This document shows positions 9,921 to 57,392 of a stretch of DNA of 64,000 nucleotides, piece by piece. The stretch comes from Spironucleus salmonicida (lineage: Eukaryota). Position 1 is the stretch's first letter, and every line of letters begins with the position of its first letter. The position numbers and the translations under genes were made by a program. Where the stretch lies: contig NC_090599.1 of NCBI RefSeq assembly GCF_000497125.1, positions 434,001 to 498,000 on the forward strand. Direction: 5' to 3'. The notes below the pieces were generated by a model. It was given only the letters and a program-made list of their open reading frames with translations, made no database searches and had not been told where the DNA came from.

Positions 9921-10522
9921 TATTGCAAAATTTGTATATTGTCGTTTATATATGGTTATATTTAATTAAATATAAAAACTAAATTTTTATATATTATTCT
10001 ATATGTACATAATATTTGTGTCACTCGAATTTAGTAGATAACGTGACTAGTGAAACGATTGGAGCATAAAATAAAGGATCAGATGTAATAATTACTTTAT
10101 ATTATAATAATTTGTTCATGACGATAATATTTGTTGTATTTATATGTTTAAGTAATACAAAAATTTATATATTATCTGAACACTAAAATTATTGATTATC
10201 ATATATATTCAGATATATTGTATAAGTAAAAGCAACTATGTTTGCAAGTATGGAAGTCGAAGACGCAAAACTATGATAATTATAAAATTCTTAAGTTCAA
10301 CTAAATCATCAAAATTATCTAATCATTAGATTTTATTATTTTTCTGAATACTAACCATACGCTTGTGGGTGCCCGCCCGCGCTGCTCAGGGGACAGCTCA
10401 GGCACCTCCGCACCCCGCATCCTGCTCACCCCTTATCCTTCTCCTTCTACTGCCCGGTTCGCTCCGCTGCCGCACCGCACCAGAATCGATACTTCGGTTT
10501 TTGGAGAGGGAAATATAAAACT

Positions 10523-10615
10523 TATACCCATATATGCGCAACCCGCCTCTCACTATCTGGGGCGGGATAGTATCTGCCGCCAGATAAGGCGGCCCGCTCC
10601 CATTAATTGGGTATA
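10523..10615. promoter_or_regulatory. Nested palindromic element upstream of the Myb gene
   Basis: TATACCCA/TGGGTATA outer arms, CCGCCT/AGGCGG, TATCTGG/CCAGATA and a central GATA-G-TATC; regulatory role is inferred. Confidence 0.5.
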
Positions 10616-10706
10616 TGCACATAATTCTGTTTTTACTGCACAAACTTTTTTGATATATTCCGGATATGCGAAAGTACACAACTGTCCCGACCTTCGCAGT
10701 CCAGAA

Positions 10707-10985
10707 ATGAACGCCGCGAAGCACAAGTGGACCAAGCAGGAGGAGGCCCTGCTCAGCGAGGGCGTGCGGCTCTACGGCTGCAACTGGCAGATGATCCGGG
10801 ACGAGCACTTCCCCGCGCTCTCCGCGCTCTCCCTCAAGAATAAGTACTACAACTACGTGAGGACCTTCGTCACGCACAGCCGCCCAGACACCAAGGCAAC
10901 GACCAGGACCGCATGCAGACCCACCAAGCTCACTAGCGAGGTGGACATCGTCAACCAGATCCGGCTCGCCCTCGGCCTCGAGTGA
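10707..10985 (+). CDS. Single-repeat Myb/SANT (telobox-like) DNA-binding protein, 92 aa
   Basis: KWTKQEEALLSEGVRLYGCNWQMIRDEHFPALSALSLKNKYYNY; first in-frame ATG at 10707; ends GAG-TGA. Confidence 0.92.
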   Translation: MNAAKHKWTKQEEALLSEGVRLYGCNWQMIRDEHFPALSALSLKNKYYNYVRTFVTHSRPDTKATTRTACRPTKLTSEVDIVNQIRLALGLE

Positions 10986-12016
10986 ATAGTATGCTAAGCT
11001 AATTTTATTATAAGTTAATTATTAAATAGTAAAAATCATGAAAACTTTATAAAATTAGGCACTGGGAATATTAATTTTTAGTGTATATACACGTTACAAA
11101 AGGTTATAATATTTCAGAAAATTTGTTGTGTATAATTACTATATAAATTATAAAGTTAATGCAATTTATTATATTTTTGTTTAATGTGAAATAAAGGAGG
11201 AATTGAAGAATATCTTTCAATATAATATGAATAATAATAAAATAAACTTATATAGATCTTAACTAGTATTACGAATATAATATTTTCTATACACTCCGCA
11301 AGAATACAATATATTCCATATATAACGACCTACAACTGAATTAAAACACGTTAATTTTTGCTGGCTTTAACTTTCAAACATTATTTTATTTAGAAATTCA
11401 ATAATTAAAACATTTATATAAACAAAATTTACTTTTTAATCAAATTCAACGTTATCCCAACATATTTAACCTTAACTATGTTAAAATTTACATATCTTTG
11501 GCTGAAAAATAAAGTAGTATCCAAATATTAAATACAACACCACTAAAAATAAAAGCTCAGTAACAAGGAAACCTGGATATGGATGTTATTGCTGCCATAA
11601 TAGTAATATAAATTATTTCAATTGGCCCTAAACAAACCTATACAACTACCATATATCCTTATATATTTTTAATTTTACTAATACACTATCACATACAATA
11701 AATAATAAATCCTATTTATCGATTCACTACTAATAACCATGCACTGAGCTACCAATGTTAGCCAAAATTTCAGCATGTCATAATCATACATAGTGACTAA
11801 AGGCATAGTTTCCTCATTTTAATTAGCTAACGTCTACCATATTATAATAAAATCACCTCGATTAGGCGATAAATCAGTGCCAAATTTTTATTAAATATAC
11901 TGAAAACGTAAAGGATAATTTGCTGTCATGCCATCATCCCGTGAACGGTAAAGTTTGAAGATAGTTTGTATACCTAATTAGTATAATAGAACTGTTTCAG
12001 GGATTAGAGGGACTAT

Positions 12017-12499
12017 ATGAATAATGATGCTGGCACTAAAGTAGCCACTAACATGAACGGAGAGTCAATGTTCACATTGTGCGCAAGGGGTAAATACAAG
12101 TATTGTGGGGTAGATTGTTAGTATTTTGAATAACAACTTCAGTTATTAATGCGAGATCACGGTTGGTGTCATATGCAAATATAGGGATATAACGGATCTA
12201 TATGTATCTGGTTAAATTTATGGACTGGGATTGTATTTAACTGCTATATAATAGATCATTCGAGGTAAAGTATATCAAATATAAGATCTTATTTCGTCAA
12301 GAATAGGGGCTGTATCTTTAAATAGAGACCTGTGCAGAATAACTTTATATGGAAGACTGTAGACTTATAGGTTTTCCTGAGCTAAACTAATGATGTAGCT
12401 AGAAAAAATGCGTTAGCAGTTGTGGTGGGGGATTATGCTGGGGTTCGGGTTTGGAGAAAATAGATAATGGATATTATTGGTCCGAAAAAATAAAAATGA
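12017..12499 (+). CDS. Possible hypothetical protein (160 aa), or 3' part of an interrupted ORF starting 11579
   Basis: ATG..TGA table-6 ORF with no recognisable motif; could arise by chance. Confidence 0.3.
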
Positions 12500-12724
12500 G
12501 ATCATGATGAAAATTTGAAAATATAAATGGGCGAATTGGGTGTGGGGTACGAATGGTTGATGAATTTATTCCGTTGCAAGAGTTATAGACAAGATTTAAT
12601 ACATAGTGTGGTATAAGGAGCATTGGTGAAAGAGCTTAAACAAAATCATGAATGAGATAATAAAGAGTTATTACAAGATATGATAAAACCAAGCATAATT
12701 GACTATTTTAAACAATGATCACTT

Positions 12725-15700
12725 TCAGACTTTTTCTTCTTAAATATTTCCAGATATAAACCTTAATTATGGACAATTAGCGACTTGCAAATCTTTTTCA
12801 GGACTAATTACAAATAAAATTTCAATAATCTTCATAAAATCACCAGCCTATACTAAAAATTCGACTTTTTCAACACAATTTTCAGTCCATTTTTTACCAG
12901 TTAGTATAATTTCAATCTGTTTGTCACTTTGATTTTCAAAATAGATGTGTTGTCCATATATGAGACTATCAATGAACATATTATGACCAATTTGTGTAAT
13001 TTTCGCCGAAAATGCAAAAGAAATAAGACATTTAAGTGTAATTGTAAATGTTGTCTATTCATTAAGGTTTAATAGTTTTATAAAATGTTGAGAATTATTA
13101 TTTTTCAAGCATTTTGGAACAAAAGAATCTTTAATTAATAAATCCATTGATACACAAACTCCTTCACCTTTTAAAGTTATAATAATATCATTGATTTTCC
13201 TTTTCATTGATTTGTCTGTAAAGATAGCAAGACAGATAACTTCCTCTGTTTTCCCTGATTTTATTGGTAAATATTAAAATATTAACATTTTCGACGTTTT
13301 AACCAGCTTTGAATCAATAAAAGATAACAATTCTAATTCTGCGTCAAATGACTAAATAAAGTTCTCTTTAACAAAGAATTCAGTTAAAGGCTAATCAATC
13401 TCAATAGATACTTATTTTTTCTTAGCTTATCCGACTGGTTGTTGTCCAAAATCTAGAACATATCTTGAACACACAGATTATACTGGCTCTATTTTTGGGG
13501 TTTCTATTGGGGGTGGAGGTTCTGGGACTGTATTTTTCTTAGATTTGGCAGATGGTGCTCTTTTAATTTCCTTTTACAAAACTTTTTCTTACACCTCTGC
13601 TACAACTGGCAATTAATTAGAAATGATAGTATCCTCTGAAATATGAACCATTGGCTAAGAAATAATAAATCTGTATGTTATAACTGAACATACAGCTTTT
13701 TAATCTATTAATATTGGGGCATTAAATTCAATATAATCTGATTTACTTTAAGTAAGATATCTATTTATATATTGTAAATCTGAATTTATATTCTCAGATA
13801 AATATTTAAGTAAGTACGCGACATTAAGAGGATTCAGATCAATTTATAATTTAATACGCTACTCTTTTTCTAATATTCCGGTAGTTGGTAAAAATTAGAT
13901 AAAATTATTAATCTTTTTAATTTCATTAATGAATGATGGAGCAATAGTATATTGAATATGATCGTTTGACAGACTAGATAATTCTATATCTGTATAAAAT
14001 ATATCATTAAGTGCGATTTCATAGATATTATCGTCTAATAATTTTGTTTATACTATGTTTTTCTGACTTGACCCAATGACCTAAAAGGTTACTTCTTATC
14101 CATACTCAGCTTCAATTAACACTTGCATTACAAATTTCTTCTCAATGTCTAATTTATATGATATATAAAACTCTTTAGTCTCTCCAGGCATTAATAATTA
14201 TATGCCACCATTTGGCTCTGAAAAACTGCTAAATCCAATATTTGTACTAGTATTCTATTTATTTGAAATCATTATATGCTATGGTAAGGCAGAATGATTT
14301 TATACTTATAAAGGGAACTTATGATACACACCAATATTGCTAGAATAACTTAAATTTATTTAATGTCCACTTTAAATTTCATGTGGTAATAAGCATGAAA
14401 TATTTTTATTAGTGAATTCAACTTTAACATGTAAATATAAACATTCCGGCTAATTAAATGCTATTACTTTAACCTTAAATTAAAAACAAATATAACTTCC
14501 AGAAAAATCTTCTTAGCTTATTTTTAACTAAATTTCTGCTAGTTATTCTTATTAATATTAGATGTTTTAAAGAGAATTACTAAGTTATGTATCTATAATT
14601 ACAATCTATTACTCTAGTTCTTCCTATGTTACTAATTGTTTAACTGGCTTGACTGGTTTTTTACTATTTTCTTATTCTTATCTTAGTTTTATCATATCAT
14701 CAATTTACTATTATAATTCTAGCTTTTCAATTTCATTCCGCTGAATAGCTGCTTTTTCTGTTTCTATAATATCTGAGATTTTAGTTATTTAAGTGTACCT
14801 ATCTGTAATTTAAGAATCTAGGTTTAATGATTGTCTAGTTGTTGCAAACTAATCGTCTGATATTTGAATATCAGACCAAAATTCATTTTTAAGATTTTTG
14901 ATACTGTTAAGTTATTTTTTGGATGCTATTTTCAATGAAAGCTTAGGAACAAATTGCATATTTTTAACATTAAGAATCATATCATTTTAATCTACTGTTA
15001 TAAATTACTTTAAGTTTTCTGGAATAACAATACTAACCTTTCTAGATTATGAAGCTGGGTCTTAATTTGTTATATTAACAACGGATTATGTCATTGCTTA
15101 GTCAAATAATCCTATCTAAAAGGTTTAGTTATACTACTCACCCCAAAAGCATGTTTTGAAATCTATTTCCTCTTCTTCTAATTATACTGGTGATGAACAA
15201 GTTTTGCATATAGTTTATAATTTATAGGTTCTTAATACTTTATTGTTTACGTCTAAAAGATTTAGCTGTTAATCAAGCAATAATTTTTTAAATTCTGGAG
15301 ATTTTGGCGAATGTATTTGACTTAAAAAGATCAATGAACGTGGCGGTATAATGAATTGAAATTCGAGGTCGTTCAATTACTAAAAATGTAATAATAGCTC
15401 TACAACTGAAAAATTATTTTTAAATTCATTGTCAATTAATGATATACGTTCTTAAATTTATATCATTAGTTATTCGTTAAATATATTTTCATCCATATAA
15501 TTAAATGTACCCTATGGGGGTGTTATAGGTCGTTTTTTCTTTGGATCAATTGTATTTAACTATATTGTCTTTTTGTCATATAATTCTTTTTGAACAGCTT
15601 CTTTTATTTCAAATGTTTTCTTTTCTGTAAAATCTTATTTACAGGATAATTTATATTCTTATTCATTAAATTTATTTCCATCTAAAAATAAAATTTTGGG

Positions 15701-17923
15701 TTTGCATAATTATAAGAATGAACCTTTAGCAAAATTAAACATTTCCTTATAAAGCAATACTTATTCATTTGGTGGTTCTGGTATTTAGCCATACTTTTCT
15801 ATTTATCTTTTTGATATAAATTCCTAAATATTATTATCTGTTATATCTTAAAAGTTTTCTTCGACTATAATAGTATTTTTGTCAGTTTTTAATTTCTTTT
15901 TATCAGCTAATGCTTATTATTCTAGATTATATTATGTAAATTATAACTTAATTTAATCAGCATATGTTTAAATATTGTTTTAATAGTAACTGATCTACTC
16001 ATATATGGTATTAATAACTTCGTCTGGTAAAAGTTCAATTAATTCAATAATGCCAGCATTTTTCAATTAATAAGAACAAGATATGGGTTAAAATCCAGTA
16101 TTTATAAAGTAATAACCTATTTAAGTATTTCCATCTACCAAGCATGTTGATTACACTTCATACTACTAAGATTCAACTAAATCCTCATTCAGTTTATAAT
16201 TTAAACTAGCATCATTGATATAACTATTATATACTTTAAAAGATTCATTATAATTATTAAATATTTAAATTTTAAATGACTCTTTATAACAATAAATTGG
16301 AATTAATAAACTACCACTTTAATGCCTGATAACTAATTCAGTGAAAACATCTTTAATATCAAAAATATTAGGGTCATTATAAGTAAATTTAATTTTAATC
16401 CTAGTTCCTTATCCAGGTGCTAACATACCTGACGGTGAGTATTCTAGCTTAAACATATTTCTATATTATTCTTCAATTTCATTAATTTTAAATGTTTATA
16501 TTGTCGCAGAATTATTAGTAATTGTAAATACAAATGCTTATTCTACTTACTACTTAAAATTATAAAAGTATATAGTATCTGGTTAAGATATGAAAGTAGA
16601 ATCCTTCGCTAGTTTTTGCGGTAATAAGGATTTTTATAAAGTTGTTGTTAGCTTATTAATTGACGGACTTAAAGGCACTAGCTTTGTTTGTTTGATAACA
16701 GGTATTTATTTCTCTCTAACAGTTAATTTCTTTGAAAATGCTTATGCAACCGGTTGGACATCGTCTGATGAATCACCTTCATCCGGTATTTCTTCTATAA
16801 CTTGCATTTTCTTAGCATCCTTGCTAGGCTTCTTTTGCTATTTACTAGAAGGCCTTTTTCCTTAACTTTATGGGCGACTAAAATTTAATTTTTCATTTTA
16901 GACTCCTAACAAATCTCTTAACTCATCGTCGGCTTAGTTTTCAATATTTACTACTTATTATTTCAATTAAATCAAGGAATCACAATTAACGCTCTTTGTT
17001 GTACTCCCCAACCCAAGTCCAAAATGAGGTGGAATCACATTCTTAGCCCTCTCTGAAACATGCTTTTTCAAGTGATCTGGAATATATGCATCTGCTACTG
17101 CACCTTCCAAAGTGTTTCCTGTAACCTTTGAAATTACTCTTTCATTTTTTGTTGATATTGCCATATCTTTAAGCTTGTTTTTGATAAAATCCTTCTCTTT
17201 TTGAACTTTATCCTAAAATTCAATCTCCCGGATTGCTAATTCTTTGGCAAAATCTTAAGCATCCTTCTTTCTCTATTTTAAAATTTAATCTCTTTTTATT
17301 TCAAATTTCTCAAGTTTTTATTGTTCTGTAATTACTCGTTAGTCTTTATATGGATTTTCCAGAAACTCTGTTTTACTTTTGATGCTTGATAATAGGTTTT
17401 ACTTGTATGCCGCCATAGCTTTGATGCTTATTGTAGGTTCTAGCGGTTGCTTCTAAGGTAGAGGTTTATATGTGATTGAAGTCTTTTTATTAGGTGGATT
17501 AAGAGGTCTGAAAAATGATGTTTAGAAGTTTTCTTTGTGCTCTGTCCATTCTTTTAAAAATCGTTACATGAACTATTTATAATTAGTTGGTTTTTTCTAA
17601 TAAATTATCGGAGTTGGTGGTGGCAAATCTTCGATAGCTAGCTGTGTTAGCTATGTGAATTTTTTATTTTTAAGCTATTTTTGGGACTCTAATTCATCAA
17701 ATAAGTTATTTATCACACTGTGTAAAACTTCTAGTCTGTCATAATACTTTGCCTATTGTTACAAGGCAGATAGATAAGGTTTCTCTAATGTAGGATCTTC
17801 AGCAAACTCGAGATATGCATTTTAAAGCTATATAGAAGCAGATTCATAATTTAATTCATTTTCTTCATAGAGTTGTACCTCTCTTTGTATTCTATCGGAA
17901 ATTATTTTTTCCGGAATTTTCAT
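12725..17923 (-). CDS. Large flagellar-type protein (~1732 aa): N-terminal coiled coil plus ASH/MSP-like Ig domains; CFAP74-like
   Basis: FTITNNSATIQTFKI...FKLEYSPSGMLAPGQGTRIKIKF is an ASH/Hydin-like motif; frame agrees with track ORF 16967..17164 and with the stop. Confidence 0.7.
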
Positions 17924-18016
17924 TTTAGGCAAAAATTAAATATGAATATTATATAAATATAATTTAAATATAGAATGTTCTGAATATGATATATTTTATA
18001 TATAAAAATAATATCT

Positions 18017-18649
18017 ATGAGTTCAGTTATTAAAATGGATATGAACGAATCTGAATTAAAATAGGCATAGTCATAGTTTGTTAAGTAGTTACTTACAACA
18101 TCAATCAATTTTTAATTAAATGATGTGAATTAAGCTATTGAGAGGTTGAGCTTTGGTGAACCAGTATGCTTTGATTTACTTAAAGATGATAGAGCGCAAA
18201 TATAAGTTACAGTTACAGAAATATCTGAATAAAATGAAACGGTGTTCTCAAAAATAGAAAGTACCAGTTTGAATAGCTAGTATAACGCTTAGTCTAGTAT
18301 CAATGATATCAAGGAGTTGATAGAGTAAAACACATTACTGGATAAAGATTTACATTTAAATGAGTTATCATTAAATGATATTTATAGTGAAAATAAGACA
18401 ACATAGATAGATTGCAATTAAGATCATTCATTTAAAAGTTAGAAATAATATGTAGCTGATGCTTACGTTGATATTGGAATAAAACCAACATCTACTTTAT
18501 TAACTGGATCAGTCAGAAAATCTTAAGTTTTAGTGGAACATATAAATTAAAATAATGTGTAAATTAAATTATTTGATTCTCCAAAGTGTAGGAAAAGCTG
18601 TTAGCAAATATAAGGCTCTTGTTATAAAAGTAGACTTTCTCATTAATGA
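18017..18649 (+). CDS. Hypothetical protein, 210 aa
   Basis: Fully translated table-6 ORF, divergent from the CFAP74-like gene. Confidence 0.75.
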
Positions 18650-18662
18650 TGGTATTATCAGC

Positions 18663-21179
18663 TCACTTTTTATTCTTACCTTTTTTACCTTTTTTGGATT
18701 TTTTCTTAGGAGGCACTGGGAAATGTGTGTCAAACAAATCTTTAATTATTTTCATTTCCTCTAATCTTTGAACCTTTTACTCATCTGTTTCTTTAGTTAC
18801 TTTGATATCTAGTTCATTATCATTTACAGAATCATCAGAATCAAAACCAGCCAATTCTTACTTATTTAAGTCTAATGCTTCTCTATAGTCTACATTTTCA
18901 TTAAAGTCTATTAATATTTCATATCTTTCACGATCAGTCATTTATGCATACGTTTTCAGCTAATCTGGTAGCTACTATTTAACTGAATCTGAATATCTAT
19001 CAATATCAACTTATGCCAAAAGTCCTTTGCCTATTGTAGCTAAAATGGCTGCATTGACCCATTTGCTATATTCTTCTGATATATCCTCTCTAATTTTCTA
19101 TAAATCATTAGTATTGTGCAAAAATTCTATAAATTCTAAAATATTTCTGCCCACTGTCTAAAAATCCTTAACACAATACTGCGTTTAACTATCCCCAAAA
19201 CTTGGTATATACACAGTATATGCTTTTCCACCATATTTATTGACGATATAGCGAATATTTGAATACTATTCTTCGGGGTTAAAACCTGTAGTTGTCGATT
19301 ATTCGTAATCAAAATTTGGAAATTTTTTACAGAAGGAGAATAAACTGCTTTCAACAAAATATTATTTGTTTTACAAGCAGTATTCATAAATTTATTTCTC
19401 AACTTCTAATGATACAAATTTTTTATCTATTTCAATAAGTGGAACCTCATCTGGTGGTGGACGCTATTATTAGTGTTATTCTTAACTTGTTATAAATGCT
19501 TTACTTCTTCGTTCTTAAAACATTCTTGTTAATACTTCTTACGGTAACTTTGGGACTATTCCTAAATTTCCAAAAATTTCCCATATCTTCATTTTTATAG
19601 GTTAATGATTAACAATTGATATTTAATCTATTTTCCATTTTTAAATAGATGTACTTGACCTCAAATCAAGAAGAAAATCTGCTCTAATTTCCTTAATAAA
19701 TTAATTAAATAATACTTGTTAAGGAGTTCTATAATTTCCTTCTTCGTGGAAAAATTTTTAAAAATTAATACCAAAATTATCTGTTCTACAGTTCCCAGAA
19801 ATTGTCCCATCGACTGCATACACTGGTAATACATAGAATACATATGTATTAAGCAAAATTTATCGTTATTATAAATGCTTATTATACCATATCTTAAGTT
19901 GTATTTTCTCCTTTTCATTAGCTTTCTCTATTTATTCCTAATATTCACCATCATACTCACAAAGTAAGTCATTGATAAACCCAGTCAATGCAAAACTAGC
20001 ACTATTATCTTATGGTGAGGTCTTTGACAAAATAAGGAAACTTTTCTTATCTTTTTCACTGTACTAATATATTTTCACCAGTGGCACCTAATTACCAAAA
20101 TAGCTCCTACAATAACTCAACATTTCAATTTTAACCCCCTTTTGCAGTATTTTGGTATTAATCTACTACAATTTGTTCAAAATCCATCCGTAGCTACAAT
20201 TTAACTGAGAGCTAAAATAAACAATTTCCTAGTCAGCCTACACCTCAAATTTGAAAATATAGCAGTAATAATTTCCTGGAGCATTGTATGAGATTTCGAC
20301 ACCTTTTTTGAGCTTTCCACTCTTTTACATCAGCCCAGATTTCTTTAGAAAATTTTTAAAATTAACCTATTATTATTTGAATTCTGACATTTCTTGCACA
20401 CGAAAACCGTTTGCTGCAAGCCCCACTGACGGCATCGCATCGAGGTAGAAGTAAGGTGTTTTACGCTAAAACGAGCCTGAATAACAGCAAATTTCGGACC
20501 CAATCCGGCTATATTTGTCCGTAAAAATCAATGGCTAGAACGGCTACTTTAGCGGCTTAAGGAGATTATTTACTTTGAAGGTGTAGGATCCCTGCTTGAG
20601 ACCAGAAATGGCAAATGCGAAGCTCATTTGGTGGTTCGAAGTCGTGAGATCCGGCCGTAGCAGAATATCGAAATTCGTGCCATTCGCATAAATAGCGAAT
20701 AAATTGGCCGTTTCGAAGCGCGATTCAACCTTGTAGGCGTTCGACAGCTTTAGTGAAAACGGTTTTGCGCCGATGTTCAATAAGGAGTGGAAAATCAAAA
20801 TCTTTTTCGTTTTCTACAGTAATTCCAACGACTCCTGCTTCTTGTAGGGCTCCTAGTCGCTAAACGTGACCGCGGGGTGCGATTCTGCGAGCTCTGGGTT
20901 TGGGTAGTTCAACAGCATCTGCGGTGAGTCTATAGGAACTTTAAGTTACTGCGGAGGCAGAATCAGTGGCTGGAACGCTAGTTTGGGTGCAGGAACTCCC
21001 GGTGCCGCCTGGCTATGCTGGAACGTCTACCCCTTCAGGTAGTCGAGCTTCGGTAGCTGGTCCCGGCCGTCCTGAGTAGGCATGGGCTACGGCAGCTTCG
21101 CGTTCGCGATGATGCTGTCTGCGACGGAGTAGTGGTCACCCCGCGTTAGAAGCGTTTAGATCAAATCTTGCTTTTGCAT
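18663..21179 (-). CDS. Cytosolic carboxypeptidase (CCP/AGBL, M14D)-like protein, 838 aa, degenerate active site
   Basis: ESRFETANL..FDILLRPD pro-domain; FYVLPVYAVDGTISGNCR; zinc motifs altered (SKTSPQD, DLRSS); basic C-terminal tail. Confidence 0.85.
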
Positions 21180-21220
21180 TCTTGGAATTTCACGGAATAT
21201 TAATTATTATACAAAATAAA

Positions 21221-23071
21221 TCAGTCGTAGTTGAATGCGCTGCCGCCGATGAACTCCCTCAAAATGGAGTGCTTTGGCACGTAGTCGCTGTTGATGCCCT
21301 GGACCCACGATAAAAATTGAATTACCCTTCTCGCCTCCATGTAACTATCAGAATCCTGGTTTACCTCGTGAAGGAGCGGTATTACGTAGGTGCTCAAGAC
21401 CATCAATTCATAGTCCAGGGCAGTATTGAAGTAGACATCCGCCCTACCCTGATTTGGGAATACCCATCTCTCTTCGCCCTTACGAACGTTTGTGAACAAC
21501 TCAATGGTTCTTTCTGCGCTGCAGTTTCTGTATTTCTTGTCTCGGACAATTCGACGAATCATTCTATAGTCACGGGTAGATATGCGGCAAGTTTCGTCTA
21601 CATTAATGCTAGTTAGCGGTTAAATGAAAATACCAAATTTTTGCTGAATTGGCACAGATTTAGTCAACAATGGATTAAGTGCGTGGATTCCTTCAATAAT
21701 AACACATCCACGATAAGGTAAGGACATGATTAGTTTCTTTTACTCTCTTTCACCTGTTTTAAAATTATATATAGGAGATTCAATTTATTTTCCCAATAAA
21801 AGATTACTAAGGTCTTTATTGAATAATGGAATATCTAAAGATTCCACATGCTCAAAATCATATTGACCATCTGGGCCCAAAGGAGTATCCACTCTATTAA
21901 CAAAGTAGTTATCCATAGATAAAACAATGGGATTTCTTCCCATAACAGTTAAGTTATATTAAAGCTTTTTAGCAAAAGTAGTTTTACCAGCACTGCTAGG
22001 GCCTGATATCATGACAAGTTTTATCTCATCTTGCACAGTAGCCTATCTACCGATTACAATAGAATTTTTGTTAAAGTTTTCTTTCACAGTTTTGTAAGCA
22101 TCTTTAACAGTGATAGGCCCATCTACGCAAAATTAGTTACGCCCGTTTAAAATTAATTTACAAACTTCACCTATTCTTTAATTTTGTCTGCTTTCACAGA
22201 TTTAAATGTAGCTTTTTAATCTTTCATCTCTATTTATAGCATTAAGCTATCCTAAAGAACTTACTTTCAAAACTTTAGACCAGTTCTAGTTTTCTTAATA
22301 TAATTGGTGAATAGTTGCATTATGCTAAAATTCAGGAATTTCAAAATGATTAGTATGGCTTGGATAAACAATTACTATCATATCTTCAATCATAAGTAAT
22401 CTATACTGCTTCAGTGACCCAGTAGTAGGTACTAAAGGAGTGTGCATTAATTAGTAATAATTACCACACTGACTAGTAAACACTCTGTTTTCATTTTTAG
22501 ATCTTACTACATCTGCAGATTCAGGTTGTGCTTAATTAGTTAATATTTATATAATATTTTCACTAGATATAGGTTTTCTAGTTAATATAGGAAGATTTTG
22601 CTTGATTAAATTTTGCATTTCTTTCTTAATCATATCAAACTCGATATGATCTATTGAATTATGCTTAGGAGCTGGAGTTGTCATTTCACCTTATAAATCA
22701 GATGATTCTATAACAATAGTATCATTCTAACATACTTCTTTAAAATAAAATGCGTGTCCAATTGAATGAGAAATGGTAAGCTAACGTGCTGGGCATATAT
22801 TATTCCATGCCATCTAAAGAAGGAAAACCAACGATTTACGATAAATAGACGATCCAGATACTGTGTCAGGATAAACTAGCTAGATATGAGAAGTTATCTA
22901 GATCTTATCAGATAATGATACAAGTTCATTATTCATTGTCGCCGCGGTTGGTGATAAATTTTTACTATTAGGTGGGAAAATATCTGGGTATTGCATAATT
23001 ACATCATAGATACGTGTGCCTGAAGGGATTTCAATCGGATTCGTCTAAGAATCAGTACTTATAAGTGGCAT
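21221..23071 (-). CDS. Uridine kinase/phosphoribulokinase family protein with N-terminal TGS/ThrRS-like region, 616 aa
   Basis: ISGPSSAGKTTFAKKL P-loop, MDNYF, EGIHALNP, RRIVRD, C-terminal SILREFIGGSAF. Confidence 0.92.
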
Positions 23072-23214
23072 TTGGTAGATTTAAATCGAAAAAACAACTA
23101 TATTTATATATATATAATATTATTAAACTAATTTGACGTGTTTAATCTATAATCAATATATATTCAAATATTTATATAAAAATCAATTTAAATGATTATT
23201 TATTATAAGAAATA

Positions 23215-26205
23215 TCACTTTTTGGCATGTTTCATAGCGGCCTTAATTTTCTGTCTACCACCTTAAACCTTGCCTGCCTTTATTGAGTTTGCCTTACTGC
23301 CTTTTGATATGCGCTCTTACACTGCTCTAGCAAGTTTTGTTTACCCTACTTTATCTCTCTTAAACACTCCAGATATTACCTATTAAACACCTCTCTACTG
23401 ATGTTTGCTTAATTTACCATGTAAAGGTATAGTAGCAGAGGGGCGTTTCCCATTTCTTGTTATGTCGCCACCAGCACCTTTGGCTTTAAATTAAATTCCG
23501 GTATTGATATTACTTAAATGCTATTGCATTCTCCTAGCTTCAATCATTTTCAACTCATCCTTAACATTTTCTAAAATTCTATCTTAATTGTTTTTATGGC
23601 TTACTTGATCAATAAATTCATCATAATTTTCATGTTAATCTAACTCATCAACTTTTTAGAACAACAATTCATCAATTTCGTCTTAATTTGAATTACCAAT
23701 TTTGATAATTTCATCATCATTATAATTTTTATTGGATAACTAGCTCCTTAGATGGCTTGGAAGAGTAATATTAAGCTGAATATACGTGTTAGCTTCATAT
23801 CTACCAGGATAGCTCTACGGAGAAACCTTCTTCAATACATGCATTATCTTGGTTTATACAGTCCTAGCCGTACGTGTAGCTTCGAAATTTCCTAATTACT
23901 AGCTTAAAACGGCTAAATTGCTCGTTAAAATCTCATTAACAAAATCTCTACCTACGCACAGGCCAGCTGCTATGAAAATACGCTTGATTTAGCTCCTGAA
24001 CTTCGGAACTAATATCATCTCATAAATATTAAACGAATATTGGTCTAAAAACTGCTGCAATTGCATAGAATCCAGATTGCAAAACAACATCTCGATGTAG
24101 TTCAAAATAGGCTATTTTTAACTATAATTTTGCGTAAACAAAAACTACGCAAATTGTACGAATTCGACAGGGAAAACAGGCAACTGGCCCATTTTAACGT
24201 ATTCGTCGAGCTGCAGCTTCATTATCTCACCAATACGAAACCCATAATAAGTCATGAATTTAACATTCTGAATGGTCGCTTCCTACGTGACAAATTTGCT
24301 TATATCAGTTCCATTTTCGGCCAGCTTGAAAACTACGTCTACAGCCGCATTTCGGCCCTTGCTATTTTCGATGCAGAGCCCTTAAAGGACCTCATTTTTG
24401 TAGCTTTCGACCCGCGCGGTCAAGTTTTCAGCCACGAACCGAACGCGGTATTTCATGTCCAATTTACACTCGTCAAACAGCGCAACGGCACCCTCCAAAT
24501 TGACCTTTGCGAAGCCGTTCAGAACCTTAAAACAGCAATTCTGGTCGTAGTTATTTTTGAGCATTTGAGCGATCAAAACGCTCATGATTTGGCCCGTTTA
24601 AGCGCCCAAACAGTCCCCAAAACGCTCTATGAAGCACGCCAGAAGGCTCACGACGATCTGCTGTGCTTCGGGAGCTAATTGCGGCAAAATAGCGACTTTT
24701 TATACCAAGAAGCTCACAGAAGTCTTAATTTCCGTGTTTGCGGGCAGCGTCGCGATGAATTTGCACGTGTTTTCGATCGTCGGCTGGCTGGTCCCGACGA
24801 GGATTTCCTGCAGGTTCGTCTGCGTGAGCGCCAGCGCGAATTTGCTGAAAACGGCGTTCGTTTGGTCGTCGTTTTGGTTGATTAGAGTGAGGAATTTGAG
24901 CTTCGAATTCGCCGCCAAAAGCTCCAAAATCTCCCGCGAATTCTCGATAAAGAGCATATAATTCTCCTCTATGAAGTCGTCAAGTTCGATATTTTTCAAT
25001 ATGCTAATCAAATTTTGGAGCGAAATAACGATATTTTTTTGCTATTTTTCATACTTTTTGCTCTCTTCGGACCAGTTCAGGAACGCCGTCGTGAACTCTT
25101 CGAAGCGGCAGGAGCTGCTGAAGGCGACGAATTGGATGTTCTCAATGCCGACGCCAAAAATTTGGAGGTTCTCGTAAAGGTCGAAATTCTCAGCCAATTT
25201 GCACAAAATTTGTGTGCTTTTTCCGACATTTTGTTATTATTATATCACCAAATTAATAAAAATTTACAAAAAATGATAGCCGTTTTTATGCTTTTTAACG
25301 CACGTTCCCATGTCCAAAATCAGCGTGTGGAAATGACTGAAAATCGTTATGAGCTTGCTCAGGTGGCAGAGGCTTTATATCAGTTTCTCGTTGGAGTGGA
25401 AATCGAATTTTACGAGGATTTTGAACGCGAAAACGAACTGCTAAATCGGCGTATTCGGGTTTTCCTGCAATTTGTGGATGAGAATCATCGCCGTTTCGTC
25501 GGTTTTTTCTGTCAAAACGCCCAATTTTGCGAGCAAAATCGGGTTCCTGAACGACTATTTGATCGTATCGAATGCCAAACTGTAGTCGAAAATGACCGAT
25601 TAATCGATCAAATAGGAAAGGAGTTTTGATTAGTCTGAGTATTAATGAGATATACAAATTTGTTTGAACAAATTCGCTCCCGCTAAAGTGGAAGTTTGGA
25701 GCGTTAAGGCGATAAAGAAGTAGCTGGCGTTCAGGAGGCGCTGGTTCTGCTGCAGGAGCAGAAGGGTAGCGTTGGCTACTTCCTATGCGAGCGCATATGG
25801 CGGCAAAACGTCTTTTTCGAGGGCTATTTTGGTCTCTAAGTGCAGGATATCCTGGATGAGTTGGTCAGTGATTTTTGGCTCGTCTGTGAGCGTCTGGACG
25901 ATTGGGGAGATGATCGGGCGCATTTGGGCTTCGATTGAGCGCGTTACGGCGATTTGCATCGGCTGTGAAGACATCACGTGCGGGATCGCTGAGTAGGCTA
26001 GTTAGAGCTCGCAGATCGAAAGGAACCCCGAAAGGATCGCTGTGATCTCAGACGATGGCGCCTGTGTCGCGTATTTCAAAATAAACGCTAATTAGCTCTT
26101 CTGTGTCTTCTCAGCTCTCGAAGTAACGTGCAAGACCAGAGGCTCTAGTGTCGTTTACTTATTGTGATACTTTTATGACGCTACCAGGAGATCTGAAACG
26201 TTCAT
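23215..26205 (-). CDS. RRP12: RRP12-like HEAT-repeat ribosome biogenesis protein, 996 aa
   Basis: C-terminal KAKGAGGDITRNGKRPSATIPL matches the RRP12 KAKKAxGDVKxxGxxxPYAYIPL pattern; three track ORFs share this frame. Confidence 0.75.
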
Positions 26206-26311
26206 TCAATTGAAATGGTTAGTGGAACGGAATAATAATTATTATATACATAATAATATCTTTTTGAGAATGAAAGTTAATCATTATTTATATTGTTAAA
26301 AACAAATTAAG

Positions 26312-27161
26312 ATAAAATTGTACGGCAAGCGTGTATATATCTTCGTTTCGAGTATTGAAAACCAGATTGAGAAAAAATAACTAATAAACTTAGCAGTAAT
26401 AGGTTTTACATGATAAATTCTGAAGGTTTTTTCGATTTCTAGATATAGAGTTAAGTTTCTTATCAACAGTTATATTTTGTTAAAAGAACTAATAATAGTC
26501 CAGAATAATTTTGAAATATATACCTACAATAAATTATATAATACTTTCTAGTATTATTTGAGATTAGATCGCAGTAAAAACCTAGTCATTGCTCAATTAA
26601 GTATATTTATGTTTTAATGAAATGATTTTGGATCCTATTCTAGTTAAAATATATTGAAACATACCAGTTCCTATTTATTTCTTATAATACTCATGAAAAA
26701 CGTACTAATTAGCATACTATTCACTCGAGGCCGAGGGCGAGCCGGATCTGGTTGACGATGTCCACCTCGCTAGTGAGCTTGGTGGGTATGCATGCGGTCC
26801 TGGTCGTTGCCTTGGTGTCTGGGCGGCGGTGCGTGACGAAGGTCCTCACGTAGTTGTAGTACTTATTCTTGAGGGAGAGCGCGGAGAGCGCGGGGAAGTG
26901 CTCGTCCCGGATCATCTGCCAGTTGCAGCCGTAGAGCCGCACGCCCTCGCTGAGCAGGGCCTCCTCCTGCTTGGTCCACTTGTGCTTCGCGGCGTTCATT
27001 TCTGGACTGCGAAGGTCGGGACAGTTGTGTACTTTCGCATATCCGGAATATATCAAAAAAGTTTGTGCAGTAAAAACAGAATTATGTGCATATACCCAAT
27101 TAATGGGAGCGGGCCGCCTTATCTGGCGGCAGATACTATCCCGCCCCAGATAGTGAGAGGC
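26312..27161 (-). repeat. Left arm of 850-bp inverted repeat (Myb gene plus ~400 bp AT-rich downstream flank)
   Basis: Reverse complement of 27551..28400; no mismatch seen by eye. Confidence 0.95.
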
Positions 27162-27365
27162 GGGTTGCGCATATATGGGTATAAGTTTTATATTTCCCTC
27201 TCCAAAAACCGAAGTATCGATTCTGGTGCGGTGCGGCAGCGGAGCGAACCGGGCAGTAGAAGGAGAAGGATAAGGGGTGAGCAGGATGCGGGGTGCGGAG
27301 GCGCCTGAGCTGTCCCCTGAGCAGCGCGGGCGGGCACCCACAAGCGTATGGTTAGTATTCAGAAA
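26709..27365 (-). repeat. Myb cassette copy 2 (657 bp)
   Basis: Reverse complement of 10341..10997. Confidence 0.95.
26721..26999 (-). CDS. Single-repeat Myb protein copy 2, 92 aa
   Basis: Same as copy 1 except S->R and R->I in the C-terminal tail. Confidence 0.92.
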   Translation of the reverse strand: MNAAKHKWTKQEEALLSEGVRLYGCNWQMIRDEHFPALSALSLKNKYYNYVRTFVTHRRPDTKATTRTACIPTKLTSEVDIVNQIRLALGLE

Positions 27366-27550
27366 TTATGATAATATACTTATTGATATATGGAGTATAT
27401 ACATTATAACAAAACCGTATAATGAACATAAAGTTGGTTTTTAGATATTAATGGCTAAAAGTTATACAATAATCTTATGTTTTTAGTCATAAACTATTTT
27501 TATATTTAGATTAATGATATATAATAAGTAGCAGTATATAACCGTAAACT

Positions 27551-28400
27551 GCCTCTCACTATCTGGGGCGGGATAGTATCTGCCGCCAGATAAGGCGGCC
27601 CGCTCCCATTAATTGGGTATATGCACATAATTCTGTTTTTACTGCACAAACTTTTTTGATATATTCCGGATATGCGAAAGTACACAACTGTCCCGACCTT
27701 CGCAGTCCAGAAATGAACGCCGCGAAGCACAAGTGGACCAAGCAGGAGGAGGCCCTGCTCAGCGAGGGCGTGCGGCTCTACGGCTGCAACTGGCAGATGA
27801 TCCGGGACGAGCACTTCCCCGCGCTCTCCGCGCTCTCCCTCAAGAATAAGTACTACAACTACGTGAGGACCTTCGTCACGCACCGCCGCCCAGACACCAA
27901 GGCAACGACCAGGACCGCATGCATACCCACCAAGCTCACTAGCGAGGTGGACATCGTCAACCAGATCCGGCTCGCCCTCGGCCTCGAGTGAATAGTATGC
28001 TAATTAGTACGTTTTTCATGAGTATTATAAGAAATAAATAGGAACTGGTATGTTTCAATATATTTTAACTAGAATAGGATCCAAAATCATTTCATTAAAA
28101 CATAAATATACTTAATTGAGCAATGACTAGGTTTTTACTGCGATCTAATCTCAAATAATACTAGAAAGTATTATATAATTTATTGTAGGTATATATTTCA
28201 AAATTATTCTGGACTATTATTAGTTCTTTTAACAAAATATAACTGTTGATAAGAAACTTAACTCTATATCTAGAAATCGAAAAAACCTTCAGAATTTATC
28301 ATGTAAAACCTATTACTGCTAAGTTTATTAGTTATTTTTTCTCAATCTGGTTTTCAATACTCGAAACGAAGATATATACACGCTTGCCGTACAATTTTAT
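27551..28400 (+). repeat. Right arm of 850-bp inverted repeat (5'-truncated Myb cassette copy 3 plus flank)
   Basis: Reverse complement of 26312..27161; 389-bp spacer. Confidence 0.95.
27713..27991 (+). CDS. Single-repeat Myb protein copy 3, 92 aa
   Basis: Identical protein to copy 2. Confidence 0.92.
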   Translation: MNAAKHKWTKQEEALLSEGVRLYGCNWQMIRDEHFPALSALSLKNKYYNYVRTFVTHRRPDTKATTRTACIPTKLTSEVDIVNQIRLALGLE

Positions 28401-33854: not shown

Positions 33855-33912
33855 TTAAAGCGTATATGTAATTATACTTTAGTATATAATAATTATATGA
33901 CTGTCTTAAAAA

Positions 33913-34629
33913 ATGTTCGTCAAAAACAGTGATTTTAGCATAAATTCACCTGAATTAAATACTTAAATCATAGCTCCAAGTTAATCAGTGGTTGATTTAT
34001 CAATATTCTTTGATAATATTACTAAAATAAACGAAATTATAGATTAAAATTAGAATGTGTTCAGGTTTGTTAAAATTCTGATCAAAAATAGACATGATTC
34101 TTTAAGAACTACCGTTTTTATGCCATATATATTTTAGTCATATAAAATTTATTTAAAGATTTAGTCACTACTGGATTAGTTTATACTAACATTGAGAAAA
34201 TATAATACTCATTAAAATATTCTTTAATATCAAATTATGATGACAACTTACATCTTATAATTGATTTAAAAGATGTAGTATATTTCAGTTAAAGCAGTTT
34301 AGTTTTCGAAGATGACGTTGCAAGAAGAACTAGATTCGTAACTTTCAGGAATGTGGCCAATAGCTGCCTAGATTTCTATATTTTCTGATCAATTATATAC
34401 ATAATTTCATGAAATAGCATTATATTCACATAAAATTATGAAAAATGATTAATATATAACTATAAACGAGATTTGTCAACAGTCAGATTAAGTTTGTTAA
34501 GCTTGGCGGTATATTACAGGCATAAGTTAACTTCCTGATTTTATTAAATTTTCTTGCAACCAGTAAAAACTATCATTGTCAGATGTTCAAAGTGTTGTTA
34601 AAATTGAGAAAAAGCTCAGTGACTGGTGA
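33913..34629 (+). CDS. Hypothetical protein, 238 aa
   Basis: Fully translated table-6 ORF. Confidence 0.7.
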
Positions 34630-57135: not shown

Positions 57136-57392
57136 TTTAATACACTAAATTCCTTTTCTATTATTATATATTATTATATCGAAAATAGATAATTTATATA
57201 TTAATACAAAATCATCAGAACTGCTGCGCTGCCTCTATTTCCACCTAATACTGATTTCCATAAAAACCCACTCACCAAATTTTTCCAAATTGTATTCTAG
57301 ACCGCATTTTAAACTACAATTTTCCCTTCCTTTTCCCACTCCCTCCGCTCCAAATCCGCCAAATCTCCCAAACCCACGCCTCACTCAAGCCC

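What the first reader, a model, noticed from the sequence alone, without database searches (positions are those of the whole stretch)
10341..28003. Dispersed GC-rich single-Myb gene cassette, three near-identical copies in 18 kb
Seen: a 657-bp unit (about 365 bp upstream, 279-bp Myb CDS, 12 bp 3') occurs at 10341-10997 (+) and 26709-27365 (-) with only 3 substitutions. A 5'-truncated third copy starts at 27551. Edges against unrelated AT-rich flanks are sharp, and the CDS uses GC-ending codons with no TAA/TAG. The Myb domain is identical in all copies; both coding changes are in the tail. Known: Spironucleus has an expanded Myb family. Inference: the gene spreads together with its promoter as a unit, either as a non-autonomous mobile module or by recurrent duplication and gene conversion, which could be a mechanism for the expansion. 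I see no TSD, TIR or poly-A tail.
Basis: partly seen in the sequence, partly recalled or inferred. Interest (0 to 1): 0.75.

Follow-up and report, generated by a model that had tools for sequence, protein, structure and literature searches.

The report
Three young copies of small Myb gene
A small GC-rich Myb transcription-factor gene was copied twice, recently and by two different one-off events, in an AT-rich diplomonad chromosome, which is ordinary young gene duplication and not a spreading mobile element.

Summary
A 657-bp unit lies at 10341-10997 (+) and 26709-27365 (-) with 3 substitutions, and a third copy starts at 27551. Each copy encodes the same 92-aa single-Myb protein.

The "unit" is not shared by all copies.
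- Copies B and C are arms of a head-to-head palindrome: 850 bp, 0 mismatches, including about 400 bp of AT-rich 3' flank that copy A lacks.
- A and B share 204 bp of distal upstream that C lacks.
- B therefore looks parental, and A and C look like two independent partial copies.

Protein clusters and short-read contig graphs show only these three copies.

New details:
- Copy A is flanked by an exact 10-bp direct repeat (chance 0.001-0.0035).
- Copy A ends 12 nt past the stop codon, where poly(A) is added in Spironucleus salmonicida (PMC1805757). A single retroposition-like or templated insertion is therefore possible.
- Contigs of probable RNA runs cover the whole unit.

Single-gene, GC-rich duplicates are already reported for this genome type (PMC9509377). 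Interest is low to moderate.

The parts
10341..10997 (+). Copy A: the 657-bp segment shared with copy B (distal GC-rich upstream, proximal promoter region, CDS and 12 nt of 3' sequence)
   Evidence: 657 nt, 3 substitutions against 26709-27365. GC is 0.559, against 0.18-0.20 in the 200-nt flanks.
10707..10985 (+). Copy A CDS: 92-aa single-repeat Myb protein (S58, R71 variant), with TGA stop
   Evidence: PF00249, E 2e-9; GC3 0.92; three-helix bundle with pLDDT about 90, disordered linker 59-73, C-terminal helix 78-88.
10330..10339 (.). Left copy of the exact 10-nt direct repeat ATTTTATTAT flanking copy A, 1 nt from the homology edge
   Evidence: Chance of a repeat of 10 nt or more in AT-rich flanks is 0.001 (15-nt flanks) or 0.0035 (25-nt flanks).
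11002..11011 (.). Right copy of the 10-nt direct repeat. It is separated from the unit by GCTA, so the junction reads GCTAA-GCTA-ATTTTATTAT.
10341..10544 (+). Distal upstream segment present in A and B only. It is GC-rich (block 10341-10500 has GC 0.61) with no codon periodicity.
   Evidence: GC by position 0.56/0.66/0.60; no Rfam match; fold z-scores -2.4 and -2.3.
10545..10706 (+). Proximal upstream segment kept in all three copies. It holds twin 16-nt imperfect palindromes (10554-10569 and 10571-10586), an AT-rich TATA-like stretch and a C-rich stretch before the ATG.
   Evidence: The promoter reading is an inference from the motif positions described in PMC3916229, section 10.
26709..27365 (-). 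Copy B: the hub copy. It shares 657 bp with A and 850 bp with C.
26721..26999 (-). Copy B CDS: 92 aa (R58, I71 variant). A public gene model extends it to the ATG at 27404, giving 227 aa.
   Evidence: (P0003, 227 aa). The extension has no homologues and no codon periodicity.
26312..27161 (-). Palindrome arm 1 (copy B side): 397 bp of AT-rich 3' flank, the CDS and 162 bp of upstream
   Evidence: 0 mismatches in 850 nt against 27551-28400.
27162..27550 (.). Spacer of the palindrome. It consists of B's distal upstream (27162-27365) plus unique AT-rich DNA (27366-27550, GC 0.20). Probable RNA contigs reach 75-88 nt into it from B.
   Evidence: a 245-nt contig of run X2 joins the reverse complement of 10341-10370 to 10545-10574. 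The loose ends of X5 and X6 before 10341 match 27366 onward.
27551..28400 (+). Palindrome arm 2 (copy C): 162 bp of upstream, the CDS at 27713-27991 and 397 bp of 3' flank beyond the A/C homology edge at 28003

Best explanation
This is a young three-member paralogue cluster of a small (92-aa) single-repeat Myb transcription-factor gene. The host is a hexamitine diplomonad chromosome that reads TAA/TAG as Gln, most likely Spironucleus salmonicida (inferred).

Copy B (26709-27365, minus strand) is the parental locus. Two separate one-off events copied different stretches of it.

1. An inverted DNA duplication of 850 bp made copy C and a head-to-head palindrome. The duplicated stretch is the proximal promoter, the CDS and about 400 bp of non-coding AT-rich 3' flank. 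The arms are still identical, either because the event is very recent or through arm-to-arm conversion.

2. A 657-662-bp copy was inserted 15.7 kb away in inverted orientation (copy A), with a 10-bp duplication of the target. It spans the distal GC-rich upstream through to 12 nt past the stop codon. This came either from reverse transcription of a long B transcript or from a templated DNA insertion during repair or replication.

All copies keep the proximal 162 bp with the twin palindromes, and so they probably stay expressed. There is no recurring mobile unit.

The high GC content is a property of the parental segment. It belongs to the known, unexplained GC-rich, high-GC3 patches of this genome and is not a sign of foreign or mobile origin.

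Shown: the copy structure, the breakpoints, the identity levels, the Myb fold, and the presence of the unit in probable RNA contigs. Inferred: the direction B to A and B to C, the mechanisms, and the promoter function.
For: Structure
- B shares 657 bp with A and 850 bp with C, whereas A and C share only their overlap of 468 bp. B as the source needs two events; any other order needs more.
- The B-C arms include 397 bp of AT-rich flank (GC 0.244) at 0 mismatches in 850 nt, so that event was at the DNA level.

Junctions confirmed independently
- A 245-nt contig of DNA run X2 joins the reverse complement of the unit's 5' end to position 10545 of the unit.
- Contigs of X1 and X2 cross both A junctions.
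- The B/C-type 3' flank is the only alternative 3' junction listed at the unit's edge, apart from one unexplained X2 loose end at 10996 (see evidence against).

Copy number
- The 90%-identity protein cluster has 3 members, all on one 1,696,856-bp contig.
- HMMER against 1.84 billion representatives finds 1 hit at E 1e-30 or better, the protein's own cluster. The next full-length relatives are 30-39% identical.
- Contig depths over the unit are 1.2-4.8 times the flanks, not tens. The tool warns that depth is not a copy number.

No residual homology beyond any breakpoint, so the present edges are the original event edges.

Copy A as an insertion
- It has an exact 10-nt flanking direct repeat, with chance 0.001-0.0035.
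- B, C and the whole palindrome have at most 6 nt.

No mobile-element features
- The longest terminal inverted repeat is 6 nt.
- No RT, transposase or integrase domain appears among the 37 window ORFs scanned; 14 of them had any Pfam hit.

GC-rich patches are not special to the cassette
- The PI3K gene at 32-33 kb has GC 0.51, and 57-58 kb has GC 0.51.

Literature
- PMC9509377 (whole text read): 19.2% of the S. salmonicida assembly lies in duplicates of at least 2 kb and at least 95% identity, most often a single gene, with GC 44.7% against 30.7% elsewhere.
- PMC1805757 (passages): there is an unexplained subset of high-GC3 genes in GC-rich segments, while highly expressed genes have GC3s of about 0.4.
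- PMC3916229 (section 10): 107 Myb proteins, against 8 in Giardia.

Expression
- Contigs of X5 and X6 (RNA is a guess) cover 10341-10989 and 10341-10877 at contig depths of 120.6 and 23.1. The neighbouring gene has 4-4.7, and the intergenic bins have nothing.
Against: - No whole genome was available. "Only three copies" therefore rests on protein clusters, contig junctions and rough depths. Degenerate or fragmentary copies elsewhere are not excluded.
- Contig tables were truncated (18 records not shown), and contigs drop rare variants.
- In X1 the three-copy part has about 4.5 times the flank depth, more than 3 times.
- Both edges of the A/B homology coincide with the edges of the GC-rich island, and the 3' edge coincides with the expected poly(A) site. 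A random DNA breakpoint model does not predict this.
- The distal GC-rich block (10341-10544) is unexplained. It is non-coding by periodicity, has no Rfam match, and is yet present in the probable RNA contigs.
- An X2 loose end at 10996, preceded by a 30-mer that is absent from the window, hints at some other locus sharing A's right flank.
- The direction of copying is inferred by parsimony only; there is no outgroup.
Confidence: 0.72

Rival explanations
1. Copy A is a retrocopy. A long transcript of copy B starts upstream of the unit and ends at the normal poly(A) site. It was reverse-transcribed, 5'-truncated and integrated with a 10-bp target-site duplication. It carries the proximal promoter because that promoter lies inside the long transcript. 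This is a sub-case of event 2 in the best explanation; copy C remains a DNA duplication.
For: - The unit ends 12 nt after TGA. In S. salmonicida the poly(A) tail begins 9-14 nt after the stop in 122 of 134 ESTs (PMC1805757, passages).
- There is an exact 10-nt flanking repeat with chance 0.001-0.0035.
- The terminal GCTAA is doubled at the 3' junction, as RT slippage could produce (recalled, not tested).
- Probable RNA contigs run without a break from 75-88 nt upstream of the unit in B's flank to 10989 or 10877.
- Reverse transcriptase genes are reported in that genome (PMC9509377, whole text).
- Both homology edges fall at the edges of the transcribed GC island.
Against: - There is no poly(A) tail at the 3' junction; only AA, which B also has.
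- Contigs cannot show that there is a single transcript, which strand it is on, or where it starts (the tool's caveat).
- A promoter-like stretch lies directly before the ATG, and 5' UTRs are short in diplomonads (recalled). The main mRNA would therefore lack the 366 nt upstream.
- No RT gene lies in the window.
- The gene has no intron, so processing cannot be tested.
- The TSD statistic is post hoc over 4 boundaries examined.
- One paper search (10 of 215 listed) showed no report of diplomonad retrogenes.
Confidence: 0.25
2. The copies are old duplicates kept nearly identical by repeated ectopic gene conversion. GC-biased conversion made the converted tract GC-rich, which would explain why the homology edges and the GC edges coincide.
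For: - The GC island and the A/B homology coincide.
- Duplicated regions of the S. salmonicida assembly have GC 44.7% against 30.7% elsewhere, and the authors suggest gene conversion for the surface-protein arrays (PMC9509377, whole text).
- The non-coding upstream is GC-rich too.
- The palindrome arms show 0 differences in 850 nt, as arm-to-arm conversion would give.
Against: - There is no decayed homology outside any boundary: flank identities are 0.25-0.40 against a random 0.315, sd 0.046, and local scores are within the random range.
- The 397-bp flank shared by B and C is not GC-enriched (0.244).
- GC-rich patches of the same kind occur in genes that are single-copy in this window.
- The 10-nt flanking repeat at A suggests a discrete insertion.
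Confidence: 0.12
3. The 657-bp cassette is a non-autonomous mobile module that inserts as a defined unit at many sites.
For: - The A/B edges are sharp and fall against AT-rich DNA.
- Copy A has a TSD-like 10-mer.
- The unit's 3' end, CTAA, resembles a Helitron CTRR end (recalled feature).
Against: - Only A and B share the endpoints; C has different ones.
- B has no flanking repeat above 6 nt, and there are no TIRs.
- The 5' TC is preceded by T rather than A, and a TSD is not a Helitron trait (recalled features).
- No further junction types appear in two DNA contig sets, and there are no further cluster members.
Confidence: 0.04
4. One or more of the copies is an assembly artefact.
For: Near-identical repeats and palindromes are classic sites of mis-assembly.
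Against: - Contigs of runs X1 and X2 independently contain both A junctions.
- They also contain the B/C 3' junction and, in X2, the 245-nt spacer contig that links B's 5' end to C's start.
- Variant letters at 10878 and 10918 are present beside the reference ones.
- These runs may come from the same sample as the assembly, so they are independent of the assembler but not of the culture.
Confidence: 0.02

Closest known systems
Short, single-gene, GC-rich duplicated regions of the Spironucleus salmonicida chromosome-scale assembly (PMC9509377, whole text read)
   Same: These are near-identical copies of a stretch holding one gene. Their GC content is well above the genome mean, and the genes belong to a multi-gene family.
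   Different: That survey counted only matches of 2000 bp or more. These copies are 657-865 bp and would fall below the cut-off (inference). The palindromic arrangement and the flanking 10-mer of copy A are not described there.
Small single-repeat Myb proteins of Hexamita inflata (87-99 aa; clusters of P0022, P0072, P0127, P0139)
   Same: They have the same length and the same architecture from Met1: one Myb repeat, a variable linker and a conserved C-terminal helix. There are 16 invariant columns in 17 sequences. They also occur as several near-identical paralogues, some on one contig.
   Different: Identity is only 30-39%. Their DNA could not be fetched, so their GC content, flanks and mode of duplication are unknown.
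Processed retrogenes made by LINE-type target-primed reverse transcription (features recalled, not from a call)
   Same: Copy A has a target-site-duplication-like direct repeat, a 3' end at the expected poly(A) site, and a possible 5' truncation relative to a longer transcript.
   Different: There is no poly(A) tail. The copy carries 366 nt upstream of the ATG, including the presumed promoter. There is no intron loss to witness an RNA step.
Palindromic (inverted) segmental duplications with arm-to-arm homogenisation, as in sex-chromosome palindromes (recalled)
   Same: The arms are head-to-head, contain a gene plus non-genic flank, are perfectly identical, and are separated by a short unique spacer.
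   Different: The scale is tiny (850-bp arms, 389-bp spacer). Conversion is not shown; recency alone explains the identity.

Membership tests
Myb/SANT DNA-binding domain proteins (Pfam PF00249) | Profile match above the curated cut-off | tested here: met
   37.9 bits against a cut-off of 24.4, E 2e-9, residues 7-50, in all three copies.
Myb/SANT DNA-binding domain proteins (Pfam PF00249) | Three-helix bundle with regularly spaced aromatic residues | tested here: met
   helices 10-23, 27-34 and 40-57 with pLDDT about 90. W8, W27 and Y47/Y48 are invariant in 17 sequences.
Myb/SANT DNA-binding domain proteins (Pfam PF00249) | Sequence-specific DNA binding | not testable with these tools
   The twin palindromes at 10554-10586 are only a candidate target.
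Non-autonomous DNA transposon (MITE-like module) | Terminal inverted repeats | tested here: not met
   the longest inverted match between the two 40-nt termini is 6 nt.
Non-autonomous DNA transposon (MITE-like module) | All copies share both endpoints and each has its own target-site duplication | tested here: not met
   C has different endpoints. A has a 10-nt flanking repeat, while B and C have at most 6 nt.
Non-autonomous DNA transposon (MITE-like module) | Many dispersed copies | tested here: not met
   three copies only, in the data reachable. A whole-genome search was not possible.
Helitron-like element (features recalled) | 5' TC and 3' CTRR ends, insertion between A and T, a hairpin near the 3' end, and no TSD | tested here: not met
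   the 3' end CTAA fits. The 5' TC is preceded by T in both A and B, A is followed by G, there is no clear 3' hairpin, and A has a 10-nt flanking repeat.
Processed retrocopy | 3' end at the mRNA polyadenylation site | tested here: met
   The homology ends 12 nt after TGA. The rule of 9-14 nt comes from PMC1805757 (passages). The X5 RNA-like contig ends at 10989 (a weak hint).
Processed retrocopy | Poly(A) tail at the 3' junction | tested here: not met
   the junction reads GCTAA-GCTA-ATTTTATTAT.
Processed retrocopy | Target-site duplication | tested here: met
   an exact 10-mer with chance 0.001-0.0035. The test is post hoc, over 4 boundaries examined.
Processed retrocopy | Loss of introns and absence of the parental promoter | tested here: inconclusive
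   The gene is intronless. The copy includes 366 nt upstream of the ATG. That fits only if a long transcript exists, and one search is compatible with this without proving it.
Inverted segmental (palindromic) duplication | Two high-identity arms in inverted orientation that include non-genic flank, confirmed by an independent junction | tested here: met
   850 nt, 0 mismatches; the 245-nt spacer contig in X2.
Concerted evolution by ectopic gene conversion | A converted tract embedded in older, diverged homology | tested here: not met
   the flanks beyond all four boundaries are at random similarity.

The most novel reading that the evidence does not exclude
Copy A is a promoter-carrying retrocopy. 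A long read-through transcript of copy B includes the gene's own proximal promoter. It was reverse-transcribed and integrated with a 10-bp target duplication exactly from a 5'-truncation point to the poly(A) site. If so, RNA-mediated duplication operates in diplomonads and can yield immediately expressible copies. That would be a concrete route to the roughly 100-member Myb expansion of Spironucleus.
Probability: 0.25. Interest if true: 0.55.

Novelty: new member of a known kind. Interest (0 to 1): 0.27.

Why it matters
This is one well-resolved, very recent step in the growth of a transcription-factor family that is about thirteen times larger in Spironucleus than in Giardia (PMC3916229, section 10).

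- It shows the family growing by small local duplications that carry the promoter. The two events at this locus had different breakpoints and probably different mechanisms.
- It argues against reading GC-rich islands in this AT-rich genome as foreign or mobile DNA.
- It flags an inconsistent gene model: 227 aa for copy B against 92 aa for copies A and C.
- The flanking 10-mer, together with the poly(A)-site end of copy A, gives a cheap genome-wide test for retroposition in diplomonads. One literature search (10 of 215 papers listed) did not show that retroposition is established there.

Tried and rejected
- Whole-genome search: no genome is held for this window.
- Structured RNA in the GC-rich upstream: Rfam gave 0 matches at E up to 1 over 9000-30000. 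Folding the 366-nt upstream gave z-scores of -2.42 (plus strand) and -2.34 (minus strand), which is unremarkable, and there is no covariation data.
- Coding N-terminal extension: the 366 nt upstream is open in frame with the Myb CDS. I rejected it as coding for these reasons:
  - there is no third-position GC peak;
  - there are no homologues among 393 word-sharing candidates;
  - A and C have no in-frame ATG;
  - the Hexamita relatives start at the same Met.
- NCBIfam gave 0 families for the protein.
- Similarity of the distal block to anything else in the window: only chance hits of 12-21 nt.
- Helitron and MITE readings were rejected (see the membership rows).
- TSDs for B, C and the whole palindrome: none above 6 nt.
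- The first TSD null was inflated by the (ATAAT)n array, so I redid it without that array.
- Loose-end 30-mers of DNA contigs at 10179, 10996, 11232 and 11658 were sought in the window with up to 3 mismatches; 0 matches each. Their origin stays unknown.
- No empty-site joint across copy A was listed in any of the 4 runs laid (table 5). Contigs drop rare variants, so this does not show absence.
- No listed run is on record as RNA. X5-X8 are guesses, and their cover is reported as presence only.
- Paper searches for diplomonad retrogenes (10 of 215 listed) and for GC-biased conversion in Spironucleus (8 of 282 listed) showed no dedicated study in the listings. Supplements were not consulted.

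Full report
**Setting.** The window is AT-rich (GC 0.311). Its long ORFs are open only if TAA and TAG are read as Gln: 103, 130 and 179 such codons in the ORFs of 1766, 1732 and 2295 aa.

Pfam gave hits for 14 of the 37 window ORFs I scanned, including the three Myb copies. The hits are ordinary cellular genes: a CFAP74-like protein, uridine kinase/PRK, protein kinases, PI3K, P5C reductase, UDG, ankyrin and RING. None is a reverse transcriptase, transposase or integrase.

Several lines point to a hexamitine diplomonad, most likely Spironucleus salmonicida:
- The nearest full-length relatives of the Myb protein are from Hexamita inflata, and a more distant hit is from S. salmonicida.
- The protein's cluster sits on one contig of 1,696,856 bp.
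- The DNA runs that hold the stretch have 12-13 million letters of contigs.

This identification is an inference. I use the S. salmonicida literature on that basis.

**The observation.** It is real.
- 10341-10997 (+) and 26709-27365 (-) match over 657 nt with 3 substitutions. These are 10404 A/G in the upstream part, 10878 A/C (S58R) and 10918 G/T (R71I).
- The three coding sequences (10707-10985, 26721-26999 minus strand, 27713-27991) give 92-aa proteins with one Myb repeat. Pfam PF00249 scores 37.9 bits against a cut-off of 24.4.
- GC by codon position is 0.52/0.43/0.92, against GC3 of 0.20-0.67 in six neighbouring genes.
- A self-comparison of the whole window finds no other repeat pair.
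- The AlphaFold model has a confident three-helix bundle (residues 10-57), a disordered linker (59-73) and a C-terminal helix (78-88). The R71I change lies in the linker. S58R lies one residue past the end of the third helix and just before the linker.

- The B-C homology runs on through 397 bp of AT-rich 3' flank. C 27551-28400 is the exact reverse complement of B 26312-27161: 850 nt with 0 mismatches. The 5 mismatches of the 865-nt BLAST hit all lie in 27541-27550. B and C are therefore arms of a head-to-head palindrome with a 389-bp spacer.
- A and B share 204 bp of distal upstream (10341-10544) that C lacks.
- A lacks the 3' flank that B and C share.
- There is thus no common unit. B overlaps both of the others, so the most economical history is B to C and B to A as two events with different breakpoints.
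- Beyond all four breakpoints, similarity is at the random level: 0.25-0.40 against a mean of 0.315, sd 0.046. The edges are therefore those of the events, not eroded ends of older homology.

**Copy number and reality of the copies.** No genome was held, so I used three proxies.
1. *Protein cluster.* The 90% cluster has 3 members. These are the A form, the B/C form, and a 227-aa model that extends B to an ATG at 27404. All are on one contig.
2. *Protein search.* HMMER against 1.84 billion representatives gave 506 hits at E up to 0.001. Only 1 hit was at E 1e-30 or better, and that is the protein's own cluster. The next full-length relatives are 30-39% identical.
3. *Contigs of two DNA runs laid on 9600-11700.*
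   - Contigs cross both junctions of A.
   - The only alternative 3' continuation listed at 10997 is the B/C flank.
   - One 245-nt X2 contig joins the reverse complement of 10341-10370 to 10545-10574. That is exactly the B-spacer-C path.
   - Contig depths over the unit are 1.2-1.8 times the flanks for the two-copy part and 2.1-4.8 times for the three-copy part.

Three caveats apply. The tool warns that such depths are not copy numbers, 18 records were not shown, and contigs drop rare variants. Within those limits there are three copies, and they are not an assembly artefact.

**Copy A as an insertion.**
- A is bracketed by an exact ATTTTATTAT at 10330-10339 and 11002-11011, 1 nt and 4 nt from the homology edges.
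- I drew 8000 random AT-rich site pairs at the same spacing, leaving out the (ATAAT)n array. A flanking repeat of 10 nt or more occurred with frequency 0.001 for 15-nt flanks and 0.0035 for 25-nt flanks.
- I looked at four boundaries, so the corrected figure is about 0.004-0.014. B, C and the palindrome show at most 6 nt.
- The A/B homology ends 12 nt after the TGA. In S. salmonicida the poly(A) tail begins 9-14 nt after the stop in 122 of 134 ESTs (PMC1805757, passages).
- The 3' junction reads GCTAA-GCTA-ATTTTATTAT, so the terminal pentamer is nearly doubled and there is no poly(A) tail.

**Transcription.** Contigs of two runs that are probably RNA (the label is a guess) cover 10341-10989 in X5 and 10341-10877 in X6. 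The contig depths are 120.6 and 23.1. The neighbouring gene has 4-4.7, and the intergenic bins have nothing.

Both contigs continue for 88 and 75 letters into B's upstream flank (27366 onward). So the "upstream" 366 nt is present in RNA at B. The X5 contig carries the B/C letters at 10878 and 10918. Contigs cannot show strand, ends or whether there is a single transcript.

The 227-aa model for B probably reflects this RNA signal, but I think it is over-extended:
- The extension has no third-position GC peak: 0.56/0.66/0.60 and 0.53/0.46/0.38.
- It has no homologues among 393 candidates.
- Its ATG lies outside the duplicated segment.
- A and C have no in-frame upstream ATG.
- The Hexamita relatives align from the same Met1.

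**Mechanism.**
- *Event 1 (B to C)* was at the DNA level, because it includes a long non-genic flank.
- *Event 2 (B to A)* was a discrete insertion. The flanking repeat, the end at the poly(A) site, and the fact that both edges fall at the edges of the transcribed GC island fit reverse transcription of a long, 5'-truncated B transcript.
- Against the retrocopy reading are the missing poly(A) tail, the inclusion of the promoter, and the weakness of contig evidence.
- A templated DNA insertion during repair or replication, re-copying 10 nt of the target, is the alternative.
- I put the retrocopy reading at about 0.25.

All three copies keep the proximal 162 nt. This stretch holds two adjacent 16-nt imperfect palindromes (10554-10569 and 10571-10586), an AT-rich stretch at about -55 and a C-rich stretch before the ATG. 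The layout resembles the TATA, C-rich and A-rich promoter layout described for S. salmonicida (PMC3916229, section 10). The promoter function is inferred, not shown.

**GC richness.** It is not evidence of foreign or mobile origin.
- GC-rich patches occur in genes that are single-copy in this window, such as PI3K at 32-33 kb (GC 0.51) and 57-58 kb (GC 0.51).
- The 2007 survey describes an unexplained subset of high-GC3 genes in GC-rich segments, while highly expressed genes sit near GC3s 0.4 (PMC1805757, passages).
- The 2022 assembly paper reports that duplicated regions of at least 2 kb and at least 95% identity (19.2% of the genome, usually one gene) have GC 44.7% against 30.7% elsewhere (PMC9509377, whole text).
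- GC-biased conversion is a natural suspect. Here, however, the B/C-shared flank is not GC-enriched (0.244), and no older homology surrounds the tract. I rate that reading at 0.12.
- The distal GC-rich block (10341-10544) remains unexplained. It has no Rfam match and unremarkable fold z-scores.

**Verdict.** Recurrent local duplication that carries the promoter is supported as two one-off events.

This is a new, small example of a phenomenon already reported at larger scale for this genome. It has one feature worth a follow-up: the TSD-like repeat together with the poly(A)-site end of copy A.

Noticed in passing
window 50386-52277: There is a 1.9-kb pure (ATAAT)n microsatellite: 379 copies, 96% matches, GC 0.00-0.09 over 2 kb. 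It creates long spurious ORFs on both strands under table 6.
   Followed up: partly
window 26721-27404 (-): Public gene models are inconsistent among the paralogues. Copy B is modelled as 227 aa (P0003) starting in B-specific flank, while A and C are 92 aa. The extension looks non-coding.
   Followed up: yes
window 10341-10997 and 26709-27365: A and B are 657-bp inverted repeats, 99.5% identical, that bracket 15.7 kb with four genes (CFAP74-like, an 838-aa ORF, uridine kinase/PRK, a 996-aa ORF). Homologous recombination between them could invert the segment, and short contigs cannot tell the two orientations apart.
   Followed up: no
window 10179, 10996, 11232, 11658 (flanks of copy A): DNA contigs of X1 and/or X2 branch off at these places into 30-mers that are absent from the window. 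They could be other loci or alleles sharing short AT-rich stretches. The X2 branch at 10996 sits exactly at the unit's 3' edge and is unexplained.
   Followed up: partly
window 10404: The probable RNA contig of X5 joins B's upstream flank to the letter A at 10404, which is the copy-A letter; the window's B has G there. The X6 contig has G. X1 DNA contigs show only A, and X2 contigs break at this site. This may be collapse of transcripts from several copies, or the site may be polymorphic or converted between copies.
   Followed up: no
window 10554-10586 (also in B and C): Two adjacent 16-nt imperfect palindromes of the form TATCTG-N4-NNGATA lie about 120-150 nt upstream of the ATG. Copy C's 5' breakpoint falls 9 nt upstream of the first one. 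They are a candidate binding site, possibly for the Myb protein itself.
   Followed up: no
window 20000-22000, 24000-26200, 32000-33000, 47000-48000, 57000-58000: GC-rich patches (GC 0.41-0.51 per kb) lie inside or across ordinary genes that are single-copy in this window, for example PI3K at 31353-33971. This is the compositional mosaic reported for S. salmonicida (PMC1805757).
   Followed up: partly
Hexamita inflata proteins P0022, P0155-P0165 (no DNA held): The homologous small-Myb family in H. inflata also exists as several clusters of paralogues at 90% identity or more (7, 2, 4 and 2 members). Some clusters have several members on the same contigs, for example five members of three clusters on one 458,580-bp contig.
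   Followed up: no
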